A stretch of 64,000 bases of DNA, from contig NC_073389.1 in NCBI RefSeq assembly GCF_028641065.1, forward strand, positions 49,042,001 through 49,106,000, written 5' to 3'. Both the position numbers and the translations under genes were made by a program. The notes under the pieces were generated by a model that was given only the letters and a program-made list of their open reading frames with translations, made no database searches and was not told where the DNA came from. This DNA is from Leucoraja erinacea. Lineage: Eukaryota. Shown one piece after another: positions 601 to 62,768 of this stretch. The first letter of the stretch is position 1. Each line of letters opens with the position of its first letter.

Positions 601-1836
601 ACAACTAAATTAGCTGTTATTCAACCAATATGCAGATTCACATCAACTCTGTGTGACACGAAAGTGGCTTGTGCGATTACACAAACAAAAATCTTTTAGG
701 TACTATATTGCATCGTTTAGAGGACATGTTTATAGTATATGAGCGAACCACAGGTAGATGGGACTAGTAGATGGGGCATGTTAGTTAGCGTGGGCAGGTT
801 GGGCCGAAGGGCCTGTTTCCACGCTGTATGACTCTATGACTATGACTCTAATATAAAGCAACCCAAACTGTCTGTACAGCATTAAGCAGAGTTCAAGGTG
901 GGATTAAGTAATTGTGTTAATGAGTTGATTAGCATGGAATATTAATCTCAGATCTGCATTGTTTTAATGGGATGAAAACCTTAAGTGTAAAATGATTAAA
1001 ATATCAATTGGAAAGCCATGGGTCGCTCCAAGATCCTCAATGTGTAAATCCCCACTCACAGAAACAGTCAATGATCCCAACACTAATCATTTCCATCATC
1101 TGTTGCTTTCCTGATTTGTTCTGGCCTTTCCCCATCTCCAGTTTATTCTCTCCACCTCCACCCCCCCACACCCCACCCCTCCACTTCACTTTCAGTCTTA
1201 AGAGGGGTCTCGACCAGAATCGTCACCTATTCCTTTTCTCCAGAGATGCTCACTGACACCCCCCGAGTTACTCCAACATTGTTTGTGCACCTTTACTGTA
1301 AACCAGCATCTGCTGTTCCTTCCTACACAAGGGTAATACATCGGTTAAATAACAAGCAGGCACCAATGCACAACATTTCCTGGATACCTTACTGTTAGGC
1401 ATTTCTCTAAATATGTTAATGAGTGGCAAAAATTGTCGACTTTTTCTCGATGGAGGTGGAGAAATGACATGACACAATGACATAATATGTGGTGCTGCAC
1501 GGCATCGCTCTTGATACCCTTGAGAATTTTCTGCACATATAAAACTTACAATTAATTGGCATACTGTAATGACAGCAAACACGAATAGCCTCACTGCCAT
1601 TACGCCCACACACAATTGTCCATTACAATAATCCCTTCCTATCCTCACTTTGCTTTCTAAATTCCTGTTGTCAAAAATAAATTGCAAAGCTTCAAGAAGA
1701 CAGCAAGAAATAGGAGCAGGTAGAGTGCCTAAAAATACTTAAAATCCTCTTCACGTATCATAATAATTCCGTGGTTTAAAGAAGGTTGAAACTGAGCAAG
1801 TGTAACTGATGCTGCAGGAAAAGATACTTGATGTTG

Positions 1837-1876
<40 letters not shown>

Positions 1877-2091
1877 GAAATAACACTGGAATGATCTAAT
1901 GAGTTTGATCAGTGACATTACTGAATCTACTTTAGTCAAATTCTCTGTTGCCAAAGGACAGATGGTGATCGTAAAATAATTTTTTTAAACGTCGAAAGGG
2001 TAACAGGACATTTGTCTGCCTGCAATGCGGTGGAATTGGACTGTGTTTACTCTGTGTCTTTCAGGGGTGCATGATTTATAATTGATATCAA

Positions 2092-2810
2092 AAGTCAATA
2101 GTCAAGAGAGTTTATTGTCGTGTGTTCCAGATAGGACAATGAAACTCTTGCTTGCTGCGGCACTACAGAATATTGTACAGATCCGATCAGTTTGTCCATA
2201 TACCATAGAATATATATATACACACACACACACATAAATAAACAGAGAAAGTGCAATAGGCTGTTATAGTTCAGAATTTGTTTGAAGTTGCGTTTAATAG
2301 TCTGATGGCTGTGGGGAAGTAGCTGTTCCTGAACCTGGATGTTGCAGATTTCAGGCTCCCGTACCTTCTACCTGATGGCAGCAGTGTGTGTAGCCAGGAT
2401 GGTGTGGGTCCTTGATGATGCTGCCAGCCTTTTTGAGGCAGCGAATGCGATAGGTCTCCTCAATGGTCGGGAAGTCAGAGCCGATGATGGACTGGGCAGT
2501 GTTTAAAACTTTTTGCAGTCTTTTCCACTCCTAGACACTCAGGTTGCCGAACCAAGCCACGATGCAACCGGTCAGCTTGCTCTCTACTGTGCACCTGTAG
2601 AAGTTCGAGAGAGTCCTCCTTGACATACTGACTCTCCGTAATCTTCTCAGGAAGTAGAGGCGCTGATGTGCTTTCTTTATGATTGCATCAGTGTTCTGGG
2701 ACCAGGAGAGATCTTCGGAAATATGCACGTCCAGGAATTTGGAGTTCTTGACCTTTTCCACCATCGACCCGTTGATATAAATGGGACTTTGGGTCCCCAT
2801 CCTACCGACT
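2092..2810 (-). mobile_element. Rex1/Babar-type LINE 3' fragment
   Basis: KFLDVHISEDLSWS..QRLYFLRRLR..FYRCTVES..WFGN; short-repeat tail. Confidence 0.8.
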
Positions 2811-3530
2811 TCCGAAGTTCATTCGTGGAAGAAGGAAAAATGCATCAGTGCCTGCTACAGTAAACATCACATCAAAGGAAATTCCGGTATACAAGGAGTA
2901 GGTGAATCTTTGCATTTCAAGCTGAAGAAGGGTCTCAGCCCGAAACGTCACCCATCCCTTCACTCCAGAGATGCTGCCTGTTCCGTTGAGTTACTCCAGC
3001 TTTTTTGTGTCTATCTTCGGTAGATTAATCTTTGTTCGTTGAGCATTGCTCCCAGTGATCACTGTAATTGGCGCTCTTCTTCTTCTTCTTGCGTATGGCG
3101 TGCACAGCCTAAAGTTATAGAACAACTTGTTCTATTTGATCTTATTTGATTGTGCATGCCGGTTTGATTGCATTCGTCAAAACAGGGCGGACCAAGTCTT
3201 GTTCGTCTTACACGATTTTTGTGTTGTGTCTTTAAGTTTTCTTTAACACGGTCCTGTGTTCACAGCCGTTAGCTCTGTATCAATGATCGGTGAATATGCA
3301 TTTAAATTCTTTGGGGTCTCTGTTAGTTGATCTCTGGTACATTTTTGTGACTACATGTGTTCCAATTCACATTTGTGAACATTTGGTCAAATTGTCTGTG
3401 ACAATGCACATTATTATAAACTAGCTTTGTAATCCCGATTGTGAATGTTGAGAATGACTTTGCTTCCTGAGGGTGGTCAGTGGCAGTATTGAAGGCTTCA
3501 TGCTCCTTCAAATACACTAATAAAAGATAA

Positions 3531-3992
3531 AGGGCCTGTCCCACGAGCATGCGACTGCATGCGGCGAGCGCGACCAAACCGGAAGCGGGGGCCGCGCGAG
3601 GGTCGAGTGATTCCCATACAGGTTCCGGTCCCACCAGCATGCGACTGCACGCGGCGAGCGTGACCAAACCGGAAGCGGGGGCTGCGCGGAGGTCGAGTGA
3701 GTGGCGTGATGTTCGAGCGAAGTCCGTGGGAAGTTCGCGCGTGACGTACGGCATCAAGACGCTGGGTATGCCCGTCGAGGCATACGGCGTCGAGGCGGCT
3801 GCGGTCCGGCAGGCCGTTGCCGCGCGGAATTTTTGGACAGTGTCAGTTTTTCAGAGCCCCGCGCGATGTCGGGACCAGCTCCATGCGACTCCGGCGATCG
3901 AAGTGGGACCGGCCCCACGAGGCCGTACGGCTCAAGCGACCATGTTAGGTCGCGCTTGCCGCATGCATTTGCATGCTCGTGGGACAGGCCCT
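3531..3992. mobile_element. MITE with long terminal inverted repeats (possibly PIF/Harbinger-like)
   Basis: agggcctgtcccacgagcatgc ... gcatgctcgtgggacaggccct; flanks TAA/TTA; internal duplication of the left arm. Confidence 0.85.
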
Positions 3993-4234
3993 TTATGCAG
4001 TAACCGAGTACGTAGAGGAAGGAACTGCAGCTGCTGGTTTACATGGAAGATAGACACAAAAAGCTGGAGTTGGCTCAGCAGGTCAGGCATTTCAGATTGG
4101 AACCTTCCCCAGAGCTGCTGCCTTACCCATGATTAGTCTTGAAAATCATATTAATGAGAATTGCAATTCCTTGAAATATTTCAAAAATGTAGCCTTGTGG
4201 ACCTTACCACAAAAAACCCCCTGCAATAACAGGT

Positions 4235-4812
4235 TCACAAGTTATAGTAGTAGAATTAGGCCATCCAGCCCATCGAGTCTACTCTGCCATTCAAGCCTGG
4301 CTGATCTCTGACTCCTAATCCCATTTTCCTGCCTTCTCCCCATAACCCTTGACACCCATTCCAATCAAGAATTTGCTATATCTGCCTTAAAAATATCTAC
4401 TGACTTGGCCTCCACAGCTCCCTGTGGAAATGAGTTCCATGGATTAACTACCCTCTGACTAAAGAAGTTCCACCTCATCTCCTTTTCTAAAAGAGCACCC
4501 TTTAATTTTGAAGCTATGATCTCTGGCCTTGAACTCTCCCACCAGTGGAAACATCCTTTCCACATCCACTCTATCTATGCCTTTCATTATTCTGTAAGTT
4601 TCAATGGGGTCCCCCCTCAACCTTCGAAACTCCAGAGGCCCAGTGCTGTCAAACGCTCATCATATGCTAACCCACTCATTCCTGAAATCATTCTTGTAAA
4701 GCTCCTCTGGACCCTCTCCAGAGCCTGCACATCCCTCCTCAGATATGGGGCCCAAAGTTGCTCACAGTACTCCATATGTGGCCTGACCAGCGCCTTGTAG
4801 CGCCTCAGCATT
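4235..4812 (-). mobile_element. CR1 LINE 3' fragment
   Basis: YKALVRPHMEYC..W, ERVQRSFTRMI; FFSQRVVN; CR1-type tail. Confidence 0.85.
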
Positions 4813-5429
4813 ACATCTCTGCTTTTGAATTCCAGTGATATAACGCATCATTGAATCAAAAAATGCAGATGCTGAACATGTGAAATTAAAACAGCAACAT
4901 TCAGGGCAGGCAGATCTGGGGAGGAAAAAATGGTTCAAAAACAGTTCCGAGAATGAGATGCCAACCCAAAATATTGAGTTTGAAGAAGGGTCTCGACTCC
5001 AAACGTCACCTATCCCTTTTCTCCAGAGATACTGCCTGACCCGCTGAGTTCCTCCAGCATTTTGCGTCTATTTTTGTGTAAACCAGCATCCCTCCCTGCT
5101 CTATTGATGGTTCTTTTGATGACTATTTCACTCTGAAGTTGCCACCCAAGCTTTTTTTGGGGGGGGCATTTTTTATTTTCTTTATTTGTAGTAATATTTT
5201 TTTCGATATTCCAAACTACCTTTACATCTTGATATTGTTTTTATTTTAATTGGGAAAATAAATAGTGCTCTGGTGGTTCAATGGTTCTTGGTTGTCACCC
5301 ATGCACTGCACAGAGGAATTCTTTCTGCATTGTTCACATATGCGCAAGTGCCTATATTTTGGTGCAGTTTACAAAAAGAAAAAGGCCAAGGTTTGGTCCA
5401 CATGCTGAATGTACTGGAGTGCCCCCGTT

Positions 5430-5850
5430 CCAGGCGAGTCCCAGGCTTCTGCAGGGCCTCCTCCGTTGCCCACGACCAACTCGGCCCGCCAACAAACGTC
5501 CCTCTCCTCGCCCGACCACCTCTATGTCTCGGGGGCGCCTCCTGCAGCTGACCTTGAAGGCGTTGGAGGCAATAACCCAGTCCCTCTCCTACCCCAGTCC
5601 AGTCTTCATGTCCGTCAGCACCAGCGACTCCCTCCTCCTCAGCTCTCCAGTCTTCGGGGGCCGAGCTCGGCGGTTTCCGAGCTTCCCCCCGCTCCCCGCA
5701 GGCCGCAGCCCGCCCGATCCTTCTTCGCGAAGGCGATCCAGGCCAGCCGCCACACGTGACCGCGGACGATACACCGTGTCCGGCTTCCTTCGCGGCGGCA
5801 CGTGTGTTTGATATCCGTGAAGGTTATTTCACGCGATTGGCTTTTCAGCC
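5430..5850 (-). promoter_or_regulatory. CpG-rich promoter / candidate first exon of a minus-strand gene running off the left end
   Basis: CpG-dense; two CACGTG E-boxes (5753-5758 within GTCACGTG, and 5799-5804), CCAAT(-) 5836-5840, CTTCGCGAAG palindrome; candidate donor GGG|GTAGGA at 5593/5592. Confidence 0.5.
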
Positions 5851-8520: not shown

Positions 8521-11500
8521 TACGAGGGCAGTCAGATGATGGGGGCTTGAAAGAGAACAGGTTACGAAGGAATTTGGGGAATTAGATTAAATGAATGGTT
8601 GAGAACAGCACAGACCCGATGGGCTGAATGACATCCAATGTCACGAGGAGAACAGTTGCTCCATTCTTTTAGACCATAATACTCACGAAAGACGCTCCAT
8701 CTCGAAAGAACGAAGAATGAGAGAACGAAGAGAGGACCTGATGGGGGGCCGCTGTGATTGAAGGGGGGTGGGGTGGGGGGGGGGGGGGGGGGAGCAACAA
8801 CGTCTGGGGGGGGCCGAATGCTGCGAGCTGAAGATAAAACTGTTTGACAAACTTTCCGTAACTTCGTTGGTGCCAGAAGCATGGCGACTTGTGCACTGCC
8901 TAGGTGAGGCCTGCTGTATGATTTAAACGGGCTGTTTGCCAAACAAAGCATTTCACTGTACACGCATGTCAATAAAGTAGCACTGAATCTCTGGGACAAT
9001 ACTACAAGTGCCACATATTTAAAACTCCTCACAATATTCCACCTGCTACAGACACATCCCATCTTGAAAGGAGGGAAAGAATATTCACAGAACCCAATGC
9101 ACAGTTGAGAAAAAAAGGAACTGCAGATGCTGGGATACAAAAAAAAAGACAAAGTGCTGGAGTAGCTCAGCAGGTCAGGCAGCACCTCTGTAGTACGTGG
9201 GTAGGTGACATTTCGGGTCAGGACCCTTCTTCAGACCGAGGAAGGGTTCCAACCCAAAAGGTCACCTGTCCGTGTTTTCCAGAGATGCTGCCTGATCTGC
9301 CGAGTTACTCCAGCACTTTGTGTCTAACGCGTACTACTCTCATTTCGATATACCCAAAATTGGATAGGGTCCCAACCTGCAACATCACCTACCCACGCTC
9401 TCCAGAGATGCTGTGGGACCTGCTGAGTTCCTCCAACACTCTGTCTCTCATGCATAATACTGTCATTTCCATATACCCAAACATGGAAGCTCGAAAAGCA
9501 GACACTGTTCTTGTAAGCTGGTCATTGAATCTGAACACATGCCATAAGAAAACAGGTTTTGCAAACTTGGATGGCTAATACCGAGGCGTGACACTCCACT
9601 TAACGATCAAGATCACAATCTACAACTTAAATTACTACCAAAACTTCAGTGATGTTAGCTATATGTAAAGGCAATTCTGAAGCTGAAGAGCAAATCACTG
9701 TGATACTTCCAGTGTGCAACAAAGTTAGAATGGAGGGTTTGGACCTGTAGAAGATCTCGGACCCGAAATATTTCTCTTCTCACAGATGCTGCCTGACATG
9801 TATTCAGTATATACATATATATTTTTTTAAATCTCAGATTGCTAGCATCTGCAGGTTTTTTTTCCATTTACAGTATAAACATCCTTATCATTATGGGTGC
9901 ACGCCCAAAGAGAAACTGCAGGTAAACAAATATCAGAATGAAAATGGATAAAAAGTCAAGCAAAGGGCAGCACAAATGTGTGGCTAATAAAGCTGCTCCA
10001 TCACAGTGCCAGCGACCCAGGTTTGATCCAGATCTCAGGTGCAGTCTGTGTGCAGTTTGCATATTCTCCCTGTGACCGCGTGGGTTTTCTCCAGGTGCTC
10101 CGGTTTCCTCCTACATCCCAAAGACGTGCAAACTTTAAATGGCCTCTAGATTGTTCCTAGTGCGTTGGGAGTGGGTGCGAAGGTGGGATAGCAGAACTAC
10201 TATGAGCAGGCGATCGATGGTCGGCGTGGACTCGGTGAGTCAGAGGGCCTGATTCCATGCTGTATTTTTCCCCAATCAATTCCAATACTGCAGACACTGC
10301 TGCGAGCAAGTGCACCAAACTTTGACTATTCAAATTAGAAATCATTACATGTACAAGTTTAGTCTTGCAAGTATTTCCGAGTCAGATTTTATTGCGAAAC
10401 GTCTTTAGTTTGATTCCGGAATAACCATTTGCAATAATCATGCAGTGTACTCTGGAATTGCACGAATAAACCCCTCATTCATCAAGGAGCAACCATTGTC
10501 ACACAGAAATAAGTGCTGTCCAGCAGAAATGGATGGTTAAAACTCTCACCTGCAGATTTTGATCACCAATAAAACCATCTATTAGAAAAAATCTTGTCAA
10601 ATTTCAAAGTCTTAACAAGTTATCTTTGCTGGAATTGTATTGACAGCTCAGCAGAGCAATATAGTGCAGACCAGTCAATGCACTTATAGGTTGTTGCCTG
10701 ACACCATCTTAATAAGTCTGAAGAAGGAACTCGATCTGAAACGTCACCCATTCCTTCTCTCCAGAGATGCTGCCCGTCCCGCTGAGTTACTCCAGCTTTT
10801 TGTGTCTATCTTTTAGAAGTCATTATTCCATATGGAGGGCGTGGGGAAATCGACTGTTAAGGGTGAAAATATACTGGCTTATTGACTCTACATGCATCTA
10901 CACTTTAATTTATTACCCTGCAGTAGAATAGAATTAATTGGAAAAGAAAATAGTCGCAAAATGCTGGTGTAACTCAGCAGGTCAGGCAGCATTCTTCAGA
11001 CAGTCGGATAGAAAGATCGCCTATTCCTTTTCTCCAGAGATGCTGCCTGACCCACTGAGTTGCATTTTTGTGTCTATCTTCAGTGTAAACCAGCATCTGC
11101 AGTTCCTTCTTACGCAAGAAAATAGTCGCACTGGAAAGTTGATGGAAGTTTATAAAATGATGACACACAGAGATAGGGGATTCAGTTGAAATCTTCTTCC
11201 CACGGTGGAAATGTTAAAGATTAGTGGGCAGAGGTTTAAGGGGGAAAGGGGCAAAGTTTAAAGGAAATACGAGAGGCCTTTTCTTTCCGACGAAGCAGAT
11301 AAAATAGTGGCATTGAAGAGGCTTTTAGGTAAGCAATGAAGATGGGCACGATGTGCTGAAGTAACTCAACAGTTGTGAATCTGTGGAATTCTCTGCCACA
11401 GAAGGTAGTTGAGGCCAGTTCATTGTGGCTGGGATGGGATACTGAGTTGGATACAAAGGGATCAGGGGGTATGGAGAGAAGGTAGGGATGGGATACTGAG

Positions 11501-22400: not shown

Positions 22401-22646
22401 CTTTATTGCGGGGGAGAAAAGGGTAACAAATCCATTATAGAGCAACAAATCATCAAGAATCACAATCTGAGCAGTCTGAAGAAAGATCTCAACCTGAAAC
22501 GTCACCTATTCCTTCTCAACAGAGATGCTGCCTTTCCTGCTGAGTTACACCAGCATTTTGTGTCTATCTTAAGAATCACAATATTTGTAGCCGTCGACTT
22601 AAACCAACTTCTGCAGTTCTTTCCTACACAAAGGAGGACCCGGCGT

Positions 22647-25649: not shown

Positions 25650-25810
25650 AGGTACACATAAATGCTGGAGAAACTCAGCGGGTGCAGCAGCATCTATGGA
25701 GCGATGGGGATATCTCCTTCGCTCCATAGATGCTGCTGCACCCGCTGAGTTTCTCCAGCATTTTTGTGTACCTTCGATTTTCCAGCATCTGCAGTTCCTA
25801 CTTAAACATA
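25650..25810. mobile_element. Penelope-derived fold-back element (hammerhead core absent)
   Basis: Inverted arms ggtacac..ggagcga / tcgctcc..gtgtacc; near-TSD tagatagattctt / tagatagattatt. Confidence 0.75.
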
Positions 25811-28950: not shown

Positions 28951-30228
28951 CCCAGAGTGTTTTTGTTCTTGGATACATTTGGCCCTTCGAGCCAGCACCA
29001 CCATTCAATGCGATCATGGCTGATCAACCACAATCAATATCCCATGTACTGTATCTGTGTGTGACTATATGATTACAATCGAGCCTTTTACAGTGTATAG
29101 ATACCTTCTCAGTTCTCCGACCAGTCTGACTGTCCCTGATTACATTTTATCTGTTTGCTTTATTACCATCTCCGAGCAAACAATGATCTATTCTCATTTT
29201 CCTTGATTGCCACCCCCTTTGGCGTCTCGTTCACACACCTCACACTTCCTTATCTCCTCTCCCCCCTCCCCTCAGTCTGAAGAAGGGTCTCGACCTGAAA
29301 CGTCATCCATTCCTTCTCTCCAGATTGGTTCAAACCAGCATCTGTAGTTCCTTCCTGCACATGATAAGGGAATAATGTTTAGTGCAAGGTAAAGGCAGCA
29401 AAGTCGAATCACCGAGGGTCTCCAATGAGTTAGATAGTAGGTCAGGACTGCTCTCTGGTTGTGGTGGGATGATTCAGTTGCCTGATAACAGCTGGGGAGA
29501 AACTGTTCCTGAATCTGGAGGTGTGCGTTTTCACACTTCTATACCTTTAGCCTGATGGGAGAGGGGAGAATAGGGAGTGGCCAGGGTGCGACTCACACTT
29601 GGTCATGTTGCTGGCCTTGCCGAGGCAGTGTGAGGTGCAAATGGAGTTGGAAGGGAGGTTGGTTTGTGTGATGGTCTGGGCTGTGTCCACAACTCGCTGC
29701 AATTTCTTGCGGTCCTGGATGGAGCTGTTCTCAAACCAAGCTGTGATGCTTCCTGTTAAAATGCTTTCGGTGGTGCATCTACAGAAGTTGGTGAGAGTTG
29801 TAACTTAACACTATATTCTGCAATATTTACTTTCTCTTTTACTGTCATGGTTGTGAATGTTTTGATTGTCCTCATCTACAGTATAATTTACTTCGACACC
29901 ACACAAAATGTTTTTTTCCACTATATCTCAGTACACAGGTCCACACCACAAAGACTGCTCATCAAATAATGAAGGCAGCATTCCCCTGGTCCTCTCCGTC
30001 TAGTGCCCACGAGCACCAATTGATCGCCTCATGCTCTTTTCTCCAGGAAAAACACAAAACGTGGGATCAAGTGATGATCTTTATTGAAAATATTTAAAAT
30101 TCATTACAATTGTTAGATGGAAAAATAACCACAAATTTGCAACATTCAGCATGTCCGAATTAGTACATCAAGAAAAATCTTCTGAAATTTGAACGGGTAT
30201 TTTTAAGGCAGATAGAGATATATTCTTG

Positions 30229-30487
30229 TGTTTAAGAGGGAACTGCAGATGCTGGAGAATCGAAGGTTACACAAAAAAAGCTGGAGAAGCTCAGCGGGTG
30301 CAGCAGCATCTATGGAGCGAAGGAAATAGGCAACGTTTCGGGCCGAAACCCTTCTTCAGACTGATCGGGGGCGCACCCGCCCCCGATCAGTCTGAAGAAG
30401 GGTTTCGGCCCGAAACGTTGCCTATTTCCTTCGCTCCATAGATGCTGCTGCGCCCGCTGAGTTTCTCCAGCTTTTTTTGTGTAACCC
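30229..30487. mobile_element. Penelope-derived fold-back element with hammerhead motifs, 16-bp TSD
   Basis: 109-bp inverted arms 30265-30373 / 30378-30486; TSD tagagatatattcttg at 30213-30228 and 30488-30503; absent from the paralogous site in copy C. Confidence 0.85.
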
Positions 30488-30662
30488 TAGAGATATATTC
30501 TTGATTAGTACGGGTGTCAAGGGTTAGGTGGTGAAGGCAGGTGAATGGGGTTAGGAGGGAAGGATAGATCAGCCATGATGGGCCAAATGGCCCAATTCTG
30601 CTCCTATCACTTATGAACTTTGCTCTTTCCGTTTTGTTACCAATGCCTTGTGCTCTTCCAGC

Positions 30663-31099
30663 TTACCATTCCTGAACAGTTTTTTTGCTCACAAGCTCTC
30701 CATGTGGACCTTCCGCACCTTCTGGTAGAAGAGCCAAGTAGACCGGGGTCACGGCACCTTCTTCTACTGTGCCTGGTGCATTAGGACCAGCCATGTCGGT
30801 TTTCACCCAACCGGGACAACAGGCATTCAGCAGGATCTTGTCCGCAGCTCTCTCCTTACTCAGTCTTCGGGCATGGATCATGGAGAGGACTGTGACGCCG
30901 ATCTTTGAGACCCCGTAGGCCGTGGAAGGCCACCCTTGTTTGGGGTGAACCTCGTTCTTGGCGTCATCGACAAACTTCCTCATCAGCTCCACCAGCTCGT
31001 CCTCGGTGAGTGTAGGACTGCGGAATTTATTTTGGAGTTCCGGGCTGCATTTGAGTAGTGCTACCTTGCTCATGAGGCTGGACACATTCACTACTCTCC
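30663..31099 (-). CDS. CBR1: Carbonyl reductase 1-like, copy B, coding exon 2 (437 nt)
   Basis: ttttgcag|GG acceptor; YGVSK; CCPGWVKTDMAG; AATAAA(-) at 30080-30085 with downstream GT-rich element. Confidence 0.95.
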
Positions 31100-34000
31100 C
31101 TGCAAAAGTAAAAACTAAAACGTTAGGAACAAGAAACGTACACAGAAGTGCATGGGTCATAGAAACAAGGAACTGCTGATGAAAGAAAGAATGAACGATA
31201 CTTCATTGCCACATGTGACAAGTCACCGTGATATTCTTTGTTTTGCGTAACCAAGGTATGCAAAGAGTCGCCACATAAAGGGCACCGACAAAGTTACAAA
31301 GTATTCCAGGCCAGGTCACCCTTTGTTCTCCCACCCCCTCCCCACACAGCAGTTCTCCCACGCCATGTCCCCCTTTTTTCTCCCTTCCCCCCCCCCCCCG
31401 CCATATCTGGAGAAAAGGAATGGGTGAAGAAGGGTCTCAACCCGAAACATCACCCATTCCTTTTCTCTAGAGATGCTATCTGTCCCACTGAGTTACTCCA
31501 GTTTTTTGTACCTATCTTCAGTTTAATAACCATATAACAATTACAGCACGGAAACAGGCCATCTCGGCCCTTCAAGTCCGTGCCGAACACTTATTTTCCC
31601 CTAGTCCCATCTACCTGCACTCAGATCATAACCTTCCATTCCTTTGCCGTCCATATATTTATCCAATTTATTTTTAAATGATAAAATCGAACCTGCCTCC
31701 ACCACTTCCACTGGAAGCTCATTCCACACGGCTACCAATCTCTGAGTAAAGAAGTTCCCCCTCATGTTACCCCTAAACTTCTGTCCCTTAATTCTCAATT
31801 TAAACATTTAAACCAGCATCTGCTTCTTACACAGTATCACACCTCCCTCGGCATCAAAATTCTTGAGATGTTTCTTCAAACGTGGGTGTATTATTGGTAT
31901 TCCATACCACAGTGGCACTGTGTCCCAGCAGGGTTGGTATATTGGAACAAAACGATCAAGGACACCCAAGTGCTAGAGTAACTCAGCGGGTCAGGCAACA
32001 TCTCTGGAGAATGTACATGTGGTGTGCTGAGATGGGTCCCAATCTCCAGATACTGGGACAGTTTCTTCCCGGCTATTGTCAGGCAACTGAATCATCCGAC
32101 ACAACGAGATAGCAGTCCTGAACTACTATCTACCTCATTGGTGACCCTTGGACTATCCTTAATCAGACTTTGCTGGCTTTAACGTTATTCCCTTATCATG
32201 TGTCTCGTGGACAGCGCCTCATGCGAGTGTGGGGACCCAACACAGACAGTGGAGCACATAGTCACCAGTTGCCCCAAACACCAGCCACCGAATGGTGAAC
32301 GAGGTCTGATTGACCTGGGCGATGACACGTTTTCCTGGCTCTCCTCAACGGAGCTGCAGGTCTAAAAGACATACGACAGAAGAAGATGTATTGTCTTTCT
32401 GCTGACTGGTTAGCTCGCAACAAAAGCTTTTCACTGTATCTTGGTACAGGTGACAATAAACTAAACTGAATGAATCACAAACATCACCTATCCATGTTCT
32501 CCAGAGATGCTACCTACGAAGTTTGAAGAAGGGTTTCGACCCAAAACATTGCCTTCGCTCTATAGATTCTGCCTCACCCGCTGAGTTTCGCCAGCATTAT
32601 TGTCTACCTTCAATTTTCCAGCATCTGCAGTTCTTTCTTAAACATGCTACCCTAAGCCAGTAAGTTACGCCAGCACTCTGTGTCCTTCATTTAAACCAGC
32701 ATCTTCAGTTTCTTGATGCTACAAAAATGGTCAATTATTTCCAGGCTTATTTTCCTCAGAAGGCCAGGATCCTTCCCATCAGTTACAAGAAATCTCCATA
32801 GGAGTCAGATAAAATCACAAGTAAAACATTACGTGTGCTGATCCTGGACAAAGCATCGTGATCTCAATACACAGCTCTTCACACAGTTTGCTAAAGGACT
32901 CATCCAGTTTCAACATATCTTCTTCCAAGCAATGCTAGCACAGCACACGATAGTCTCAGTACATTGTGCAACAACTATACATCTGCGTCACATTGCAGTG
33001 CTTGAGAGAAGGCAAGAACTAAATCCAAAACTTAACGACCCTGTTAGTTTAAAATCAGTGGTAAATCACGGATTAGAATTTATAATGAAGCATAAAGTGA
33101 CTGAGCACAAAGGGAAATTTCATCTGATTTAAGAGAGGCAACATGGTTTAGTCTTTGGCGTATGTGAGCTTGCAGAAGGTATTTAATAAGATTCCAAACT
33201 AACAAATACAATCTAAAATGAAAGGACCATGAAATTGAAGGCAAATTATTACACTGCTTGCCATTTGTTATTAGGTTGACGTTTAGGGTAATAGGGTAAT
33301 TGCCTTACTTTCTATCTTGTTTTTTGCCTGAAAATTTAGGTCGCTGTGCTTCACGGTCACCCCGACTAGCACAGAAAATTTCAGCTCAAAAATCAGCCGT
33401 TTTCCATGTTTTTAACGGGCGGGAAAGTGCGCGTTTCCCTAACATGTACCATTCACTAACATGTACCGAAGTGAGATATGTCCTCCAGTTAAAATTTTCG
33501 GTCATGTGAGGAGGGGATCTACGCTCATTTGACATTTGGTGAAATCACCCTATACGTTATCCTGCAGTTTAGTTCAGCTTATTATTAGTACAGTGAAAAG
33601 CTTTTGTTTGTGTGCTATCTAGTCAAAGAAGACTGCAGCACAATGGCAAGTTGCTGTACAGCGTCAGAGACCCGGGTTCGATCCTGACCATGGGTGTTGT
33701 CGGTACGGAGTTTGTACATTCTCCCCGTGACCTTTGTGCGTTTACTCCGGGATCTCCGGTTTCCTCCCACATTCCAAAAACTTACCCCGACTTCCACAAT
33801 TTTTTACAGCGCAAAAATTCATCATTTTGGCGGTTTTTAACGGGTACTCGTTTCGTGTATTAACAACATATACCGGAAGCTGCTATGTCCTCCAGATGGA
33901 TTGAGCGGCTCCGTGCGTCAAGCCCTATAACCCGGTGACCTTACATAGAAACATAGAAATTAGGTGCAGGAGTAGGCCATTCGGCCCTTCGAGCCTGCAC

Positions 34001-35048: not shown

Positions 35049-35439
35049 CGTGAGGTTTGATGATGGTGAGGAGTTCCGTGCACATATCCCTGGTCGCAAA
35101 GAAGTTGGTCGCCATGGTCACTTCAGCTTGGGTGCCGAACGGGGTGGTGTCGGCATTTTTAAAGGCGATGCCGGCGTTGTTGACCAGAACATCGATGCCT
35201 TCGTATTTCTGCAGCATGAACGCTCGCAGTTCCCGGATACTCTCAAGGTCGTCGATGTCGAGCTGGTGGAAGAGCGGCTTCAGCTGCTCCTCTTGCAGCT
35301 TCAGCAGCGCCTGTTGCCCGCGGCTCGCGTCCCGGGCGGTGAGGAACACGTCGCCGTCGAAATGCCGGCACAGAGACCGCACCACCTCCAGGCCGATGCC
35401 CTTGTTGGAGCCGCTCACGACCGCCACTCGCTTCGCCAT
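35049..35439 (-). CDS. CBR1: Carbonyl reductase 1-like, copy B, coding exon 1 (391 nt)
   Basis: Same SDR N-terminus, exon length and G|GTGAGT donor as copy A. Confidence 0.95.
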
Positions 35440-35704
35440 GTGTAAGAAGGAACTGCAGATGCTGGTTTAAACCGAAGATATACACAAAATGCTGGAGTAC
35501 CTCAACGGGACAGGCTCGCTATAGGATCTATTGGCAGCATCTCTGGAGAGAAGGAATCTCTGCCCCACGCCGCTTCCGGGTACCCGCCGCCCTGCGCTGA
35601 TTGGCTGCAGACAACAGCCTTGGAACGCTGCGCTTTGGATACATTTGGCGGCCAGTGCGCAGGCGCCGCAGTGTAAATATTGACTTCTCTAACTTCAAGC
35701 AACC

Positions 35705-37400
35705 TAGAAACATAGAACATAGAAATTAGGTGCAGGAGTAGGCCATTCGGCCCTTCGAGCCTGCACCGCCATTCAATATGATCATGGCTGATCATCCAAC
35801 TCAGTATCCCGTACCTGCCTTCTCTCCCTGATCCCCTTAGCCACTACCCCCTGATCCCCTTAGCCACAAGGGCCACATCTAACTCCCTCTTAAATATAGC
35901 CAATGAACTGGCCTCAACTACCCTCTGTGGCAGAGAGTTCCAGAGATTCACCACTCTCTGTGTGAAAAAAGTTCTTCTCATCTCGGTTTTAAAGGATTTT
36001 CCCCTTATCCTTAAGCTGTGACCCCTTGTCCTGGACTTCCCTAACATCGGGAACAATCTTCCTGCATCTAGCCTGTCCAACCCCTTAAGAATTTTGTAAG
36101 TTTCTATAAGATCCCCTCTCAATCTTCTAAATTCTAGAGAGTATAAACCAAGTCTATCCAGTCTTTCTTCATAAGACAGTCCTGACATCCCAGGAATCAG
36201 TCTGGTGAACCGTCTCTGCACTCCCTCTATGGCAATAATGTCCTTCCTCAGATTTGGAGACCAAAACTGTACGCAATACTCCAGGTGTGGTCTCACCAAG
36301 ACCCTGTACAACTGCAGTAGAACCTCCCTGCTCCTATACTCAAATCCTTTTGCAATGAAAGCTAACATACCATTCGCTTTCTTTACTGCCTGCTGCACCT
36401 GCATGCCTACCTTCAATGACTGGTGTACCATGACACCCAGGTCTCGCTGCATCTCCCCCTTTCCCAATCGGCCACCATTTAGATAATAGTCTACATTCCC
36501 GTTTTTGCCACCAAAATGGATAACCACACATTTATCCACATTATACTGCATCTGCCAAACATTTGCCCACTCACCCAGCCTATCCAAGTCACCTTGCAGT
36601 CTCCTAGCATCCTCCTCACAGCTAACACTGCCCCCCAGCTTAGTGTCATCCGCAAACTTGGAGATATTGCCTTCAATTCCTTCATCCAGATCATTAATAT
36701 ATATTGTAAATAGCTGGGGTCCCAGTACTGAGCCTTGGGGTACCCCACTAGTCACTGCCTGCCATTGTGAAAAGGACCCGTTTACTCCTACTCTTTGCTT
36801 CCTGTTTGCCAGCCAGTTCTCTATCCACATCAATACTGAACCCCCAATGCCTTGTGCTTTAAGTTTGTATACTAATCTCTTATGTGCGACCTTGTCGAAA
36901 GCCTTCTGGAAGTCCAGATACACCACATCCACTGGTTCTCCCCTATCCACGCTACTAGTTACATCCTCGAAAAATTCTATAAGATTCGTCAGACATGATT
37001 TACCTTTTGTAAATTCATGCTGACTTTGTCCAATGATTTCACCACTTTCCAAATGTGCTGCTATCCCATCTTTAATAACTGACTCTAGCAGTTTCCCCAC
37101 TACCGATGTTATACTAACTGGTCTGTAATTCCCCATTTTCTCTCTCCCTCCCTTCTTAAAAAGTGGGGTTACGTTTGCTACCCGCCAAACTTCAGGAACT
37201 ACTCCAGAATCTAAAGAGTTTTGAAAGATTATTACTAATGCATCCACTATTTCTGGAGCTACTTCCTTAAGTACTCTGGGATGCAACCTATCTGGCCCTG
37301 GTGATTTATCGGCCTTTAATCCATTCAATTTACCCAACACCACTTCCCGGCTAACCTGGATTTCACTCAATTCCTTCAACTCCTTTGACCTGCGGTCCCC
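35705..37400 (-). mobile_element. CR1-clade LINE, 5'-truncated, uninterrupted RT reading frame
   Basis: KSPGPD, NYRPVS, YLDFQKAFD, GVPQGSVLGP, KFADDTK, TRGHSLRI; 3' tail ttctatgtttct. Confidence 0.95.
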
Positions 37401-39200
37401 TGCTCTCTCCTTCCCTCCCCTTCCTACTTCTCCAATCAGTCTGACTGTCCCCTTGATTAAACCTTTGTTGTCATGGAAACAGCAGTCCGAAGAAGGGTCT
37501 CGACCTGAAACGTCACCCATTCCTTCTCTCCAAAGATGCTGCCTGTCCCACTGAGTTATTCCAGCATTTTGTGTCTGCTTCGTTGTCACCCTCTTCTGGC
37601 TAACCATGATCTATTCTTGCCACCACCTCTCCGACCATTCCCGGGCGAACCCAGGCCCGGACCACCGAAAATGCCGCGGCTTCCGACTCTCACTGCCTCA
37701 CTGGGGTCACCATTGTTGTTGCCGACCTTCACAGCCTCCCCAGGGCCTCTACTCCAGCCCCCCACGGGCCTCCACCAACGACTCTGCCGACCCTCACCTC
37801 TCCACCGCCCACCAGCGGGCCAGATCCGTCGCCTCATCTGAGTTCCAGGCTCAGCACCAAACCCACAACCTCCACGAGGCAGACTCCAACACCACGTAGC
37901 CTGACTCTGCTGGGTCCTACTGCTACGCCCCCTCCTAAAGGGAACCTCAGTAGTGATGGATCTTCCCCTTCCCCCTCTTTTAACCAGGTTACCCCGACCA
38001 CACCCCACCCATACAATAGTCCTCATGCCCCCCTCTCTGAACACCCGCCATCCCTCCCCACCAGATTTGGCCTTTGTCGACTCCCCTGACCCCAACCCCC
38101 ACCCTTGTTGTGGCTTCACCATCCCCCCCTGACCTCTCCCCTTCTGATAGGGAACGGTTTGTCCTCAACAGAAGCCTCACCTTCGTTCCCCTCCGCCCCC
38201 ACCTTGACGAGTTCCATGTCCACCACATCATAGAGCTTTTCTTCCTTTGCCCCTGCCTCCGTGCCTTTTTCTACGGGAAGGAGCCCTCACCACCTAGTGA
38301 TGACCTTTTCTCCCGTCTCCACCGATACCCCCCCTCTTGGACTTCCCAGAACGGCCTTCTACCCTCTCTAGACCTCTTTATTTCCAACTGCTGGCGTGAC
38401 ATCAACCGTCTCAACTTTTACACTCCCCTTACCTACTCCAACCTCACCCCCTCTGAACGTACAGCCATCCGCTCACACTGCAGCAACCCTGACATTATAA
38501 TCAAACCCGCCGACAAGGCAGGTGCCGTGGTAGTCTGGTGCGCTGGCCTCTACCGGCAAAGATCTTATAGCGAAGCTATAAGATCTTTGATCTTCGCTAT
38601 AAGATCTTTGTCTACCGGGCCAGGTGACAACTCTCAGGCCAGCACCAGGCCTTAATCTCAAACACCTTTACTGATTTCATCTCTTCTGGCTGTCTGCCTT
38701 CCACAGCCTCCAACCTTACCGTTTCCCGGCCCTGCACAGCCCGTTTTTACCTTCTCCCCAAAATGCACAAACACAACTGCCCTGACAGACTCATTGTTTC
38801 TGCCTGCTCCTGTCCCACAAAAATGATTTCCACATACCTCGACTCCATCCTATCCTCCCTCTCCCGACCTATGTCCAAGATACCTCATATGCCCTTCGTC
38901 TCTTTAATGACTTCTGCTTTCCGAACCCCCACTCCCTCATCTTTACTATGGACGTTCACTCACTCTACACCTCCATCCCCCAACAGGAAATCCTTAAATC
39001 CCTCCGTTTCTTCCTCGACCGCAAAAACCATCCAATTTCCCTCTACTAACACTCTACTCCACCTAGTGGAGCTGGTCCTCACCCACAACAACTTCTCCTT
39101 TGACTTCTCCCACTTCCTCCCAGTCCAAGTCGTAACTATGGGCACTCGCGTGGGCCCCAGCTATGCCTGCCTCTTTGTAGGGTGCTTTGAACAATCCCTG
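37400..39200 (+). mobile_element. Penelope-like element relic (pLTR-like end plus N-terminal RT region)
   Basis: ERFVLNRSLTFVP, SNLTPSERTAI..IIIKPADKAGAVVV, PKMHK..RLIVSACSCPT, ELVLTHNNFSF..MGTRVGPSYACLFVG; frameshifted. Confidence 0.85.
38557..38610. mobile_element. 54-bp micro-MITE with 8-bp TSD
   Basis: TIR caaagatcttatagcgaag/cttcgctataagatctttg; TSD tctaccgg at 38549-38556 and 38611-38618. Confidence 0.8.
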
Positions 39201-40043
39201 TTCCTATTAAATCTTTTCCCTTTCACCTTGAACACATGTCCTCTGATCCTCGACTACGCTACTCTGGACAAGAGTAGACACAGTATGTACGCTGAGAATG
39301 CCGGAAGAGTTTTGCACTGTCCCTTGTTTTGTATATGTGTAAGAAGGAACTGCAGATGCTGGTTTAAATCGAAGATAGACCCGAAAAGCTGGAGTAACTC
39401 AGTGGGACAGCCAGCATATCTGGCGAGAAGGAATGGGGATGACATTTCGGGTCGAGACCCGTCTTCATCCCGCTGAGTTACTCCAGCTTTTTGTGTCTTA
39501 TCTCAGTTTAAACCAGCATCTGCTGTTCCTTCTTACATACTATCCATGTACCCATCTTAAATGTGGAGATAGTCCCAGCCTCAACTACCTCATACACCCA
39601 AGTGAAAAAGTTACCCCTCAGATTTATATAATATCTTTTCTCCTTCATCTTGAACTTATGTCCTCTGGTCTTATCTACAGGAAAAAACACAAAACGTGGG
39701 ATAAAGTGATGATTTTTATTGAAAATATTTAATCTCATCCCAACTGTTAGGTTGAACAATAACCACAAATCTGTAACAATCAGAATGTCTGAGTTAGTAC
39801 ATCAAGAATATTCTTCTGAACTTTGAACGGATACTTTTAAGGCAGAGATAGATAGATTCTTGATTAGTACGGGTGTCAAGGGTTAGGTGGTGAAGGCAGG
39901 AGAATGGGGTTAGGAGGGAAGGATAGATCAGCCATGGTTGAATGGCGGTGAGGACTTGATGAGCCAAATGGCCCAATTCTGCTCATATCATTTATGATCT
40001 TTGGTCTCTCCCTTTTGTTACCAATGCTTTGTGCTCTTCCAGC

Positions 40044-41654: not shown

Positions 41655-42045
41655 CGTGAGGTTTGATGATGGTGAGGAGTTCCGTGCACATATCCCTGGT
41701 CGCAAAGAAGTTGGTCGCCATGGTCACTTGAACTTGGGTGGCGAACGGGGTGGTGTCGGCATCTTTAAAGGCGATGCCGGCATTGTTGACGAGGACATCG
41801 ATGCCTTCGTATTTCTGCAGCATGAACGCCCGCAGTTTCCGGATACTCTCAAGGTCGTCGATGTCGAGCTGGTGGAAGAGCGGCTTCAGCTGCTCCTCTT
41901 GCAGCTTCTGCAGCGCCTGTTGCCCGCGGCCCGCGTTCCGGGCGGTGAGGAACACGTCGCCGTCGAAGTGCCGGCACAGAGACCGCACCACCTCCAGGCC
42001 GATGCCCTTGTTGGAGCCGCTCACCACCGCCACTCGCTTCGCCAT
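41655..42045 (-). CDS. CBR1: Carbonyl reductase 1-like, copy C, coding exon 1 (391 nt)
   Basis: Same SDR N-terminus, exon length and donor as copies A and B. Confidence 0.95.
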
Positions 42046-42563
42046 GTATAAGAAGGATCTGCAGTTGCTGGTTTAAACCGAAGATATACACAAAATGCTG
42101 GAGTACCTCAACGGGACAGGCTCGCTATAGGGTCTATGGGCAGTATCTCTGGAGAGAAGGAACGTCTCTGCTGCCAAAGATCCTATAGCGGAGTTTGTAT
42201 ATAGGATCGTTGGCCCCTGTCCGCTTCCGGGTTCCTGCCGCCCTGCGCTAATTGGCTGCAAACAACAGCCTTGGAACCAACGATACTAGAGGAGCCAAAA
42301 AAGTGGAGTAACTCAGTGGGACAGGCAGCATCTCTGGAGACAAGGAATGGGTGACATTTCGGGTCGAGACCCTTCTTCATCCCGCTGAGTTACTCCAGCT
42401 CTTTGTGTCTTATCTTGTTTTGGATAGGTCTTGTACGTAATTTTAATTCTGAACTAGACCAAGTGCAGACCCGTTGGGTCTGTTCCCCCAACGTGCGGTT
42501 GTTGGTGGGGGGGTGGGGGGAGTCGGCATGCAGCATCACACACTAACTACCCTCCCGGAGGGG

Positions 42564-46205: not shown

Positions 46206-48542
46206 TATATTAACATTGTGCTTTGCAAACAGTCTGTATATTTAATCCCAAATTAAACAGTTAACTCAGGACTCATGAAGAAAGATTAGGCATTACAGGC
46301 CTGTACTCAAGCAAGCAAGGCAAGGCAAGGCAAGTTTATTTGTATAGCACCTTTCAATGACAAGGTAATTCAAAGTGCTTTACATAAAACATTAAAAGCA
46401 TTGGAAAGAAACACATATAAAATAACATTTAGATGTAAAACGATTATTAGATTATTCAAATAAAATTTTAATTACAAAATTAAAAGCAATCAAATAAAAT
46501 ATTTAAAATAGAATAAAACCAGGAATAGAAGTTACAGTGCAGTATAGGTAATTAATAAATTGTATTGTTTACTGAAAGGCGGTGGCAAACAGAAAAGTCT
46601 TCAGTCTAGATTTAAAAGAGCTGAGAGTTGCAGCAGACCTGCAGTTTTCTGGGAGTTTGTTCCAGATATGTGGTGCATAAAAACTAAATGCTGCCTCTCC
46701 ATGTTTAGTTCTGACTAGAGCCTAGAAGTTACGTATGTATGCATTATGTATGTTTATGTATGTATTGTTAGGTCTGATTACCATTGTATGTATCAAATTA
46801 GTACCTGTACTGTTGTGAAGTGCTTTGGTCAACGTGAGTTGTTTTTAAATGTGCTATACAAATAAATGTATTATATTAATATTATTATTACGAGAGATGA
46901 TCTCATTGAAATATAAGATTGGAGGTATGACAGATGATGTGTTTCATGGTTGGGAATTCTGAAATGGGGATACAAATCCTGGATAAAGGGATGAACAACT
47001 TGAGATTAAGACGGGGAGGAAATTGCAAAAGGAAACCCAGGTTGGCGAATCAGTTGGAGGTCTTTGATAATGTGGCAGGTAGAAAGGGGAACAAGGGGAT
47101 GGGATGCATTTGGATTTTCAGAAGGCTTTTGATAAAGTGGGACAAGATCCTGACTTTGGGTGGTCTCCATGAGGAGTTTGGACGCTATCCCCATAACCAC
47201 GTGGGTTTTCTCCGGTTGCTCCAGTTTCTTCCCACAATCCAAAGACATGCAGGTTTGGGGGTTAAGTGTCCCTAATGTGCAGGATAGGAATAGTATACGT
47301 GTGATACTCGGTTGATGCAGACTCGTTGGGCCAAAGGGTCTGTTTCCATGTTGTATCTCTAAACTAAACAAAAAAAATCCCCCACAAAAAAAATCAGCAT
47401 GGGATTGGCTCAAAGTGCTGGAGTAACTCAGTGGGTCTGGCAGCATCTCTGGGGAAAAGGGATGTGTGGCATTTCGGGTCAAAATCCTTCTTCAGAGTGA
47501 TGTCATGAGAGATTATCTTACCATCACCCATTCCTTTTCTCCAGAGATGCTGCCTGACCCGCTGAGTTACTCCAGCACTTTGTGTCTATCTTCGGTATAA
47601 GCCAGCACCTTCAGTTCCTTCCTATAGAAGATCAGCATGGGTATTTTTAAAACAGGGATTGATAGGTTATTGATTAATGTGATGGCAAAGTTCCGACTTT
47701 TCCAGTGAACTTTTTTCCAGTTGCCATCACTACACAGGTAGTTGTACAAACAAAGAGATGAACGTACCAGGCTTTCCTTATTCTGCATGCAAGTTCAGAA
47801 GCGCAATCTACGACCGCTGTACAATCTACACCAACCTGAAGCCGCGATCTCCGGTGGGGAAGAGCCGATTCTCGACTTACCTGGACTTTTTACCTTGTCC
47901 TTTTACCATCTGGACGCCCGCAGCGACGACTGCGGAGGGTTGAGGTCCCGACCACGGGGGAAAATGGAGGAGGACTGGCCAAATTGTGTGCCTTCCACCA
48001 CAGTGATGAATGCTGTGGTGGATGTTTGTGTTATATTTTTAGTGTGTGTTCTTTATCATTGTACCGCTGCTGGCAAATTCATTTCACTTGTACTTTACGT
48101 GCAATGTGACGAATAAAACCGTATTGTTGTATTTGTAGCTGGCTACTCGGTCCCTGGTCTGGTGGGAACTGTATGCCTCCCTGTGCCTGCCACTTCCTTC
48201 CACTATGCCCTTATATATATATATACACCACCCTGTGCATCTAATGACCGGCCCCAAGTGTCCAAAATAATACTGCAAGATATATCTAGACAAAATAATA
48301 TAACATGCCAACAGTAGCTAGCCTAAACATAAATGGCTCCTACAATTGGGAAGGGTGAAGCAGGCAGGTCACAAGTGTTAGGAGCAGAAATAGGCCATTC
48401 GCCCCATTAAGTCTACTCCACCATTCAATCATGGCTGATCTATCTCTTCCTCCTAACTCCCGTCTTCTCCCCATAACCCCTGACACCCGTGCTAATCAGG
48501 CCAGGGGGAACATGTATTGCCTGTTTGTTGCCACGGGTTTAT

Positions 48543-56881: not shown

Positions 56882-57681
56882 GTACGTTGACCCTGGACGA
56901 GGCAGAACTTGTTCTCATAGAAACATAGAAACAAAGAAAATAGGTGCAGGAGTAGGCCGTTCGGCCCTTCGAGCCTGCACCGCCATTCAATATGATCATG
57001 GCTGATCATTCAACTCGGTATCCTGTACCTGCCTTCTCTCCATACCCCTTTAGCCACAATGGCCACATCTAACTCCCTCTTAAATATAGCCAATGAACAG
57101 GCCTCGACTACCTTCTGTGGCAGAGAATTCCAGAGATTCACCACTCTCTGTGTGAAAAATGTTTTTCTCATCTTGGTCCTAAAAGATTTCCCCTTATCCT
57201 TAAACTGTGACCCCTTGTTCTGGACTTTCCCAACATCGGGAACAATCTTCCTGCATTTAGCCTGTCCAACCCCTTAAGAATTTTGTAAGTTTCTATAAGA
57301 TCCCCCCTCAATCTTCTAAATTCTAGCGAGTACAAGCCGAGTCTATTGGAACCAACTTTGGACATTTTTGGAAGGAACTGCAGATGCTGGTTTAAACACA
57401 AAGATAGACACAAAAAGCTGGAGTAACTCAGCAGGACGGGCAGCATTCCCGGAGAGAAGGCTTGGGTGATGTTTCAGGTCGAGACCCGAAACGTCACCCA
57501 CGCCTTCTCTCCGTTGATGTAAGGTTTCCATGGAGACCGGCTGGCAAAATGCCTCTCCGCAAGGAGGAATGTACACCAGGTCTCGACCCGAAAGGTCCCC
57601 CATTCCTTCTCTCCATGATGCTGCCTGTCCCGCTGAGTCACTCCAGCTTTTTGTGTCTATCTTTGATTTGATCTTTTCCAG

Positions 57682-62748: not shown

Positions 62749-62768
62749 TTACACCTGAGCAGGGGCAA

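What the first reader, a model, noticed from the sequence alone, without database searches (positions are those of the whole stretch)
30213..30503. Fold-back double-hammerhead element inserted in the 3' UTR of only one CBR paralog
Seen: a 259-bp insert bounded by a perfect 16-bp TSD. It contains a 109-bp-arm palindrome (2 mismatches, 4-nt loop) with a CUGAAGA-stem II-GAAACGUU motif on each strand. It lies between the copy B stop (30663) and its AATAAA (30080-30085). The paralogous 3' UTR of copy C (about 39840-39870) has the empty site. Established: Penelope-like elements carry minimal hammerheads with a palindromic stem III, and long dsRNA in 3' UTRs is an ADAR/Staufen substrate. Inference: copy B mRNA carries a ~109-bp hairpin that would mask a potential self-cleaving motif, giving paralog-specific control of stability or editing.
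Basis: partly seen in the sequence, partly recalled or inferred. Interest (0 to 1): 0.8.

Follow-up and report, generated by a model that had tools for sequence, protein, structure and literature searches.

The report
Ordinary fold-back Penelope retroelement stub
The palindrome in this carbonyl-reductase gene's 3' UTR is a short, mirror-image insertion of a very common jumping gene (a Penelope-like retroelement that carries a small ribozyme motif), one of probably thousands like it in this genome, with no sign that the gene uses it for regulation.

Summary
Observation confirmed: 259-bp insert, perfect 16-bp TSD, 109-bp arms with 2 mismatches, empty site in copy C. The arms are the hammerhead-bearing 3' end (pLTR) of a Penelope/Poseidon-type retroelement; sister copies run into an RT + GIY-YIG ORF, and one full-length 4-kb copy was found. 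It is not special: a 47-mer of the arm occurs 32,509 times, intact hammerhead cores 64,890 times, and 13 of 69 insertions sampled in order on one contig are palindromes of this build. All 16 inverted insertions pair one 'tail' end with one tail-less end, matching published Penelope structure and two-site priming. Reads indicate copy B is expressed (not below C in the few reads) and polyadenylates beyond the insert, so the mRNA probably carries the hairpin; insert genotype of those animals is unknown. Only one hammerhead is in sense, with a 2-bp helix I, and forming it costs about 68 kcal/mol, so self-cleavage is unlikely. Editing could not be assessed; other copies swamp the reads. No evidence for paralog-specific regulation. 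This scan noted the same element type earlier in other genomes.

The parts
30213..30228 (.). Target-site duplication, left copy (16 bp)
   Evidence: identical to 30488-30503
30488..30503 (.). Target-site duplication, right copy
30229..30487 (.). Whole insertion: head-to-head pair of 5'-truncated Penelope pLTR ends (259 bp)
30229..30264 (-). 36-nt Penelope 'tail', present on one arm only; in full-length copies it runs on into the ORF start
   Evidence: Craig 2021 fig. 2 legend; Frangieh 2024
30265..30373 (-). Long (tail-bearing) arm; hammerhead-sense on the - strand, i.e. in the CBR mRNA
30330..30361 (-). Minimal type I hammerhead in mRNA sense: CUGAAGA, extra A, stem II GGGU-UUCG-GCCC, GAAA-CG-UU, 2-bp helix I; predicted cut after 30332
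30374..30377 (.). Junction of the two copies (hairpin loop); lies in the G/C run upstream of the hammerhead, element position 145-149
30378..30487 (+). Short (tail-less) arm, ending at the second 3' terminus of the family
30390..30421 (+). Second hammerhead, antisense to the CBR mRNA
30504..30625 (.). Older multi-copy repeat in the proximal 3' UTR into whose edge the element inserted; weakly similar (72%) to the 3' end of a LINE RT element in the window (35708-37610); CR1-like by recall
30663..31099 (-). CBR1-like copy B, coding exon 2 (stop 30663-30665); short-chain dehydrogenase, intact frame
35049..35439 (-). CBR1-like copy B, coding exon 1 (intact, GT donor)
30080..30085 (-). Poly(A) signal AATAAA of copy B; sense reads end just beyond it
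39847..39862 (.). Empty site in copy C 3' UTR

Best explanation
A young, neutral passenger insertion of an endonuclease-positive Penelope/Poseidon-type retroelement. Shown: the arms are the element's pLTR end; insertions have two fixed 3' termini about 36-40 nt apart; every inverted insertion has one of each. Inferred mechanism: the element's GIY-YIG nuclease cut both target strands 16 nt apart, each nick primed reverse transcription of the element RNA at one of its two internal start sites (with and without tail), both cDNAs stopped just upstream of the hammerhead, and their ends were joined, giving a head-to-head palindrome between TSDs. It landed in copy B's 3' UTR after the B/C duplication. 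The mRNA probably folds a 109-bp hairpin that may be A-to-I edited as a bystander (inferred from general ADAR biology), but the single sense hammerhead stays buried and does not cut; no host function is needed to explain anything seen.
For: Sister copies continue into an RT + GIY-YIG frame (Pfam GIY-YIG E 2.5e-4 and RVT_1 E 9e-4, both under the curated cut-offs; Atlas top clusters 0.97-0.98 RT/GIY-YIG/HTH_animal). Full-length pLTR-ORF-pLTR copy of 4.0 kb, with frameshifts (L108). 32,509 exact 47-mers and 64,890 intact cores, reversed controls 0; 34 clusters in this window. Of 69 insertions taken in order along contig C1: 16 have an inverted second piece (15 by script, L043 by eye), 16 of 16 pair a tail end with a tail-less end, 13 have arms of 50 bp or more; 37 of 70 rows show a flanking direct repeat of 10-17 nt, no shuffle control. 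Arms truncate independently and some centres hold filler (L050, L061, L091); in L035 and L056 the tail piece stops where the other arm starts, as twin priming on one RNA predicts. Arms of one insertion differ 12/310 against 381/3704 between insertions. Same build in print: Craig 2021, Arkhipova 2013, Cervera 2014 ('dual min-HHRs ~100-700 bp in opposite strands'), Frangieh 2024. Hammerhead fold costs +68 kcal/mol in the insert, +6 in one arm. B-type reads 16 of 20 at 30988 in X24; at 30766 the non-B letter is in 1 of 9 reads in X22.
Against: The double-priming step is inferred from genomic footprints plus an in-vitro study of a lizard element, not shown here. Within-locus arm similarity also fits self-priming or later gene conversion. 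Read numbers at the gene are small, the animals' insert genotype is unknown, and B and C have different promoters, so an effect on stability is not excluded. RNA contigs of X1 held B-type exon sequence at 30958-31100 but only non-B letters at 30732-30774 and no B distal UTR (contigs show presence, not absence). The left junction is present in one other DNA run (contig 29724-30246, only 18 letters into the insert, under the tool's 31-letter bridging rule), so the insert is probably not private to one haplotype. The sample of 69 comes from the first 6.7 Mb of one contig and favours copies with intact arms.
Confidence: 0.86

Rival explanations
1. Same element and neutral status, but the palindrome arose by self-priming (fold-back) on one strand, as proposed for rotifer Penelope inverted repeats, not by two primers.
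For: Arkhipova 2013 interprets junction palindromes as self-priming on an antisense template. Arms within an insertion share subfamily variants. Several centres fall on short self-complementary words in the hammerhead (L011, L019, L030, L078, L082).
Against: The short arm ends at the same place as 43 of 70 main hits, most of them solo copies; either arm can be the shorter at the centre; some centres hold filler; L035 and L056 have almost no overlap.
Confidence: 0.25
2. Exapted regulator: the hairpin recruits ADAR/Staufen or gates hammerhead cleavage and sets copy B's stability or localisation apart from C.
For: Hairpin is real and very stable; B-type reads reach the distal poly(A) site; long 3' UTR duplexes are known ADAR/Staufen substrates (recalled).
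Against: Young, 96-98% identical to many scattered copies; build is routine; one sense motif, GUU triplet, 2-bp helix I; metazoan minimal motifs are inactive as monomers in Cervera 2014 and needed the element's protein in Frangieh 2024; B reads not fewer than C reads.
Confidence: 0.07
3. A self-contained palindromic non-autonomous element (MITE- or retrozyme-like) that moves as a unit.
For: Compact, TSD-bounded, palindromic.
Against: No second palindrome with this centre among the 30 best genomic hits; centres and arm lengths differ at every locus, from about 50 bp to 1.7 kb; no tandem array as in retrozymes.
Confidence: 0.03

Closest known systems
Penelope/Poseidon EN+ Penelope-like elements: 5'-truncated insertions with inverted pLTR and tail (Arkhipova 2013 PMC3846280; Craig 2021 PMC8557442; passages read)
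   Same: RT then C-terminal GIY-YIG, pLTRs, head-to-head inverted truncated copy, 30-40 bp tail at one end, short TSD
   Different: Here both halves are cut down to about 110-145 bp, TSDs run longer (mostly 10-17 nt against 8-10 quoted for rotifer), copy number is in the tens of thousands
PAc (Poseidon of Anolis carolinensis; Frangieh 2024 PMC11167929; main text parts 1-2 of 4 read)
   Same: Hammerhead at the pLTR/ORF-start junction, two internal 3' termini defining the tail, no copies ending at the ribozyme cut site
   Different: No ATG at stem II in L108; activity of this element's protein or ribozyme untested
Minimal type I hammerheads of metazoan PLEs (Cervera and de la Pena 2014 PMC4209133; parts 1-2 of 4 read)
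   Same: Core boxes, extra base 9/10.1, G10.1-C11.1, palindromic 15.2-16.2, pairs on opposite strands
   Different: Helix I only 2 bp (as in D. virilis) and helix II 4-5 bp; GUU triplet in this subfamily; 64,890 cores against about 4,000 and 9,000 reported for coelacanth and Xenopus (different search patterns, not strictly comparable)
Inverted Alu pairs in mammalian 3' UTRs (recalled)
   Same: Retroelement-derived long duplex in an mRNA 3' UTR, likely ADAR substrate
   Different: Made in one insertion event, unrelated sequence, editing not shown here

Membership tests
EN+ Penelope-like element (Penelope/Poseidon type) | Single ORF with RT followed by C-terminal GIY-YIG endonuclease | tested here: met
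   In sister copies, not in the stub itself: L006 468-aa open frame, Pfam RVT_1 then GIY-YIG below cut-off, Atlas 0.98, DKG motif and C-terminal EN in L108
EN+ Penelope-like element (Penelope/Poseidon type) | pLTR direct repeats flanking the ORF and overlapping its start | tested here: met
   L108: the arm sequence occurs at both ends 3.9 kb apart and the 5' copy runs into the N-terminal frame
EN+ Penelope-like element (Penelope/Poseidon type) | Optional 30-40 bp tail at one end; inverted 5'-truncated copy; TSD | tested here: met
   36-nt tail on one arm, 16-bp TSD; 16 of 16 inverted insertions asymmetric
EN+ Penelope-like element (Penelope/Poseidon type) | RT phylogeny within the Penelope/Poseidon clade | not tested
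   No tree built; the clade name rests on domain order and likeness to PAc
Minimal type I hammerhead (PLE type) | CUGANGA and GAAA-N-N-U-H core, extra base 9/10.1, G10.1-C11.1, palindromic 15.2-16.2 | tested here: met
   All present in both arms; in 124 copies extra A 119, G-C 100, CG at 15.2/16.2 in the majority
Minimal type I hammerhead (PLE type) | Helix II with pairing kept across variants | tested here: met
   Pairs 1-5 kept in 111-118 of 124; one-sided subfamily changes U-A/U-G and C-G/U-G keep pairing; no two-sided change
Minimal type I hammerhead (PLE type) | Helix I of 4-5 bp (2 bp in the D. virilis variant) | tested here: inconclusive
   Only 2 bp (106 and 101 of 124); third and fourth pairs fail (15 and 28 of 124)
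Minimal type I hammerhead (PLE type) | Self-cleavage as dimer or with protein | not testable with these tools
   0 of 70 genomic 5' ends near the cut site (position 104); no pile of read ends (table 6)
Non-LTR retrozyme | Tandem head-to-tail repeats each with a hammerhead | tested here: not met
   Head-to-head, single event; definition from bioRxiv 10.64898/2026.07.22.740005 (part 1 and passages read)
Edited 3' UTR inverted repeat | A-to-I changes in RNA absent from DNA | tested here: inconclusive
   T>C places 13 and 12 in RNA runs against 11 in DNA contigs, but 91-97% of laid reads come from other copies

The most novel reading that the evidence does not exclude
Family-level, not locus-level: this lineage carries at least 65,000 intact minimal hammerheads and several thousand single-event fold-back stubs, which could be its main source of long double-stranded RNA (the role inverted Alus play in primates); and the footprints (16 of 16 tail/tail-less pairing, 46 of 70 5' ends at element positions 120-138 around an initiator-like TCAGTCT, none at the ribozyme cut site) record in vivo double priming on an uncleaved RNA that starts at the hammerhead's 5' edge. 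Exaptation by CBR copy B itself I put at about 0.07.
Probability: 0.3. Interest if true: 0.5.

Novelty: new member of a known kind. Interest (0 to 1): 0.17.

Why it matters
At this locus little: it is a textbook Penelope insertion product that happens to sit in a UTR, with a paralogous empty site that makes a clean with/without comparison possible. The family statistics matter more: thousands of young insertions with TSDs give an in-vivo test set for how Penelope elements prime and join their cDNAs, an unresolved point (self-priming against two-site priming), and suggest a large pool of hairpin RNAs in this lineage.

Tried and rejected
Rfam scan: no hammerhead family reached E 10; only hairpin look-alikes. 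Site-specific targeting: a second insertion at 25653-25808 and loci L043, L055 lie at or next to the same spot of the host repeat, but only 1 of the first 100 tail ends does; exact junction 19 against 1 for a single control position 5 nt away, among 29,102 tail ends: at most a weak hot spot. Ribozyme-made template ends: no 5' ends at positions 99-119 in 70 rows (ends below 98 are invisible by design). Editing and hairpin-skipping joints in reads: swamped by other copies; 639 joints and 62 variant rows were not shown, so an empty-allele joint is not excluded. Run search listed no holder on record as RNA; raw RNA runs were added by species label and laid. A direct genome-wide count of fold-backs was not obtained; the figure is extrapolated from 69 insertions. 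Literature: six searches answered; none returned a paper on this family in cartilaginous fish or on Penelope plus 'twin priming', but most subscription papers and repeat databases are not covered, so this does not show it is unpublished. Lunse et al. (dimer cleavage) was not held; seen only as a reference-list title. No supplements were read; the alignments in Cervera 2014 supplements may include this family.

Full report
1. Observation. The gene is a short-chain dehydrogenase, CBR1-like by recall; three copies, each with two intact coding exons, lie in the window, and B and C are 96-97% identical in coding sequence.

2. What the arms are. The arm matches 34 clusters in this window. Among the 30 best genomic hits many continue, beyond the point where this copy stops, into a frame for an RT followed by a GIY-YIG nuclease; Pfam finds both domains weakly, under its cut-offs, and the Atlas places the protein with RT/GIY-YIG clusters at 0.97-0.98. 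Of ten longer stretches fetched, one (L108) is a full-length 4.0-kb copy with the arm sequence at both ends; its 5' copy runs through the tail into the N-terminal frame; it has frameshifts. So the arms are the pLTR end of an endonuclease-positive Penelope-like element. The host looks like a cartilaginous fish (recalled from the repeats, not tested).

3. How common. A 47-mer of the arm occurs 32,509 times and the intact minimal core 64,890 times in the 2.19-Gb genome; reversed controls 0. I examined the first 73 of those 32,509 hits, in order along contig C1: 70 loci, 69 insertions. Sixteen have an inverted second piece (15 called by script, L043 by eye); 13 have arms of 50 bp or more. Extrapolated, several thousand such palindromes exist; the sample is from one contig end and favours intact arms. 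3' termini are bimodal: 27 of 70 rows end at element positions 1-6 (tail), 43 at 27-52 (tail-less). All 16 inverted insertions join one of each, as the window's element does (36-nt tail on the left arm only). A flanking direct repeat of 10-17 nt was found in 37 of 70 rows, 7-9 nt in 13, none in 20 (no shuffle control). Arm length ranges up to 380 bp (L046/47) and 1.7 kb (L103).

4. Mechanism. Shown: two fixed termini, strict pairing, independent truncation of the two arms, filler at some centres, two cases where the tail piece stops where the other arm begins, and arms more alike within than between insertions (12/310 against 381/3704). Inferred: both target strands are nicked about 16 nt apart, each primes reverse transcription of the element RNA at one of two internal sites, and the cDNAs are joined head to head. 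Frangieh 2024 showed in vitro that a lizard Poseidon protein cuts and extends both strands and starts at two sites that define the tail, using uncleaved RNA. Arkhipova 2013 prefers self-priming on an antisense template for rotifer elements; I keep it as the main rival. 46 of 70 5' ends fall at positions 120-138, the 5' edge of the hammerhead, none at 99-119 (cut site 104) and none at 139-243; L108 also begins there. The motif there, TCAGTCT, fits the initiator consensus and also follows a polypyrimidine-YAG acceptor-like run (both recalled); a transcript start is my reading, untested. The window's copy ends at 145-149, slightly further up, so it probably came from the downstream pLTR of a longer RNA.

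5. The hammerhead. Core, extra base 9/10.1, G10.1-C11.1 and palindromic 15.2-16.2 fit the minimal motif of Cervera 2014. In 124 copies helix II pairs are kept in 111-118, with one-sided subfamily changes; helix I is only 2 bp; the triplet here is GUU. In the mRNA only the left arm is in sense and it is transcribed after its complement; forcing the ribozyme helices costs 68 kcal/mol (6 in a lone arm). Cervera found monomers inactive and Frangieh found activity only with the element's protein. Self-cleavage of the CBR mRNA is therefore unlikely.

6. Reads (4 of 24 listed runs laid; diagnostic sites). In the stranded run X22 sense reads with B sequence (18 of 18 differ only at 30159, a letter also in DNA contigs) pile at 30032-30193 and there is none beyond 30031: the distal poly(A) site is used. 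X24 also covers the distal UTR thinly (depth 4-5). In exon 2, B-type letters are in 16 of 20 reads at 30988 (X24) and 8 of 9 at 30766 (X22); at 30766-30774 in X24, 13 of 23 reads carry the letter shared by A and C. So B is not visibly depleted, on small numbers. One DNA contig (X15) runs from 29724 to 18 letters inside the insert, which suggests the insert exists in another haplotype. Against a clean picture: the insert genotype of the RNA animals is unknown, X1 contigs show no B distal UTR, and 91-97% of laid reads come from other copies, so editing and hairpin skipping cannot be read.

7. Context. Copy A's 3' UTR holds an older antisense copy of the repeat (22469-22566), the 5' UTRs of B and C end in a Penelope tail at the start codon, and an old fold-back lies just beyond C's poly(A) signal. 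Hits by this family are the background of this locus.

8. Comparison and verdict. Works like, and by the features tested is, a 5'-truncated inverted Penelope insertion with tail and TSD as drawn in Craig 2021 and Arkhipova 2013 and noted as opposite-strand hammerhead pairs in Cervera 2014. Clade placement by tree and ribozyme activity were not tested. Two earlier notes of this scan describe the same palindromic stubs and the same 5'-end cluster in other genomes (unchecked AI notes, seen after my own counts; one supplied the Arkhipova paper); a sequence look-up found nothing. New member of a known kind; interest 0.17. The bolder family-level reading is given in the section on the most novel reading.

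Noticed in passing
window 35439-35556 and 42045-42115: In CBR copies B and C the sequence directly upstream of the start codon is a Penelope tail end in sense; copy A lacks it. The insertion predates the B/C split and replaced the native 5' UTR context up to the ATG.
   Followed up: partly
window 22469-22566: Copy A's 3' UTR carries an older copy of the hammerhead repeat, antisense to the mRNA, upstream of its AATAAA.
   Followed up: no
window 25653-25808: Second fold-back of the same young subfamily, in the intron of copy A, inserted at nearly the same spot of the same host repeat; centre lacks the hammerhead.
   Followed up: partly
window 39336-39535, 9117-9435, 42297-42416, 47417-47624, 57371-57668: Older, decayed inverted pairs of the same family.
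   Followed up: no
L031-L100 (contig C1): 46 of 70 5' ends cluster at element positions 120-138, at the 5' edge of the hammerhead around TCAGTCT; none at the ribozyme cut site.
   Followed up: partly
genome-wide: Weak insertion hot spot in a LINE-like 3' repeat: 19 exact junctions against 1 at one control position 5 nt away.
   Followed up: partly
L108:rev 1533-5545 (G000:C10): Full-length 4.0-kb copy with frameshifts; the N-terminal frame is open from the hammerhead's stem II onward, about 60 codons before the first ATG, and contains short tandem repeats.
   Followed up: partly
window 30229-30264, run X22: Stranded reads from the family are biased antisense to the element (675 against 281 at 30238); could reflect orientation bias of intronic copies or internal priming.
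   Followed up: no
window 30680-30895, run X22: A second pile of B-type sense reads, separated from the poly(A) pile by a near-empty bin at 30626-30679; might reflect priming at the A7 run in the insert (30474-30480) or RT skipping of the hairpin.
   Followed up: no
window 35708-37610 and 61209-62750: Two 97% identical LINE RT fragments in opposite orientation (588-aa open frame, Pfam RVT_1 E 3e-31).
   Followed up: partly
window CBR exons: Exon 1 is closer between A and C (97.8%) while exon 2 is closer between B and C (96.6%; A 88%), suggesting gene conversion among the paralogs.
   Followed up: no
L025: An insertion whose centre has expanded into a tandem array of a 34-bp hammerhead fragment.
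   Followed up: no
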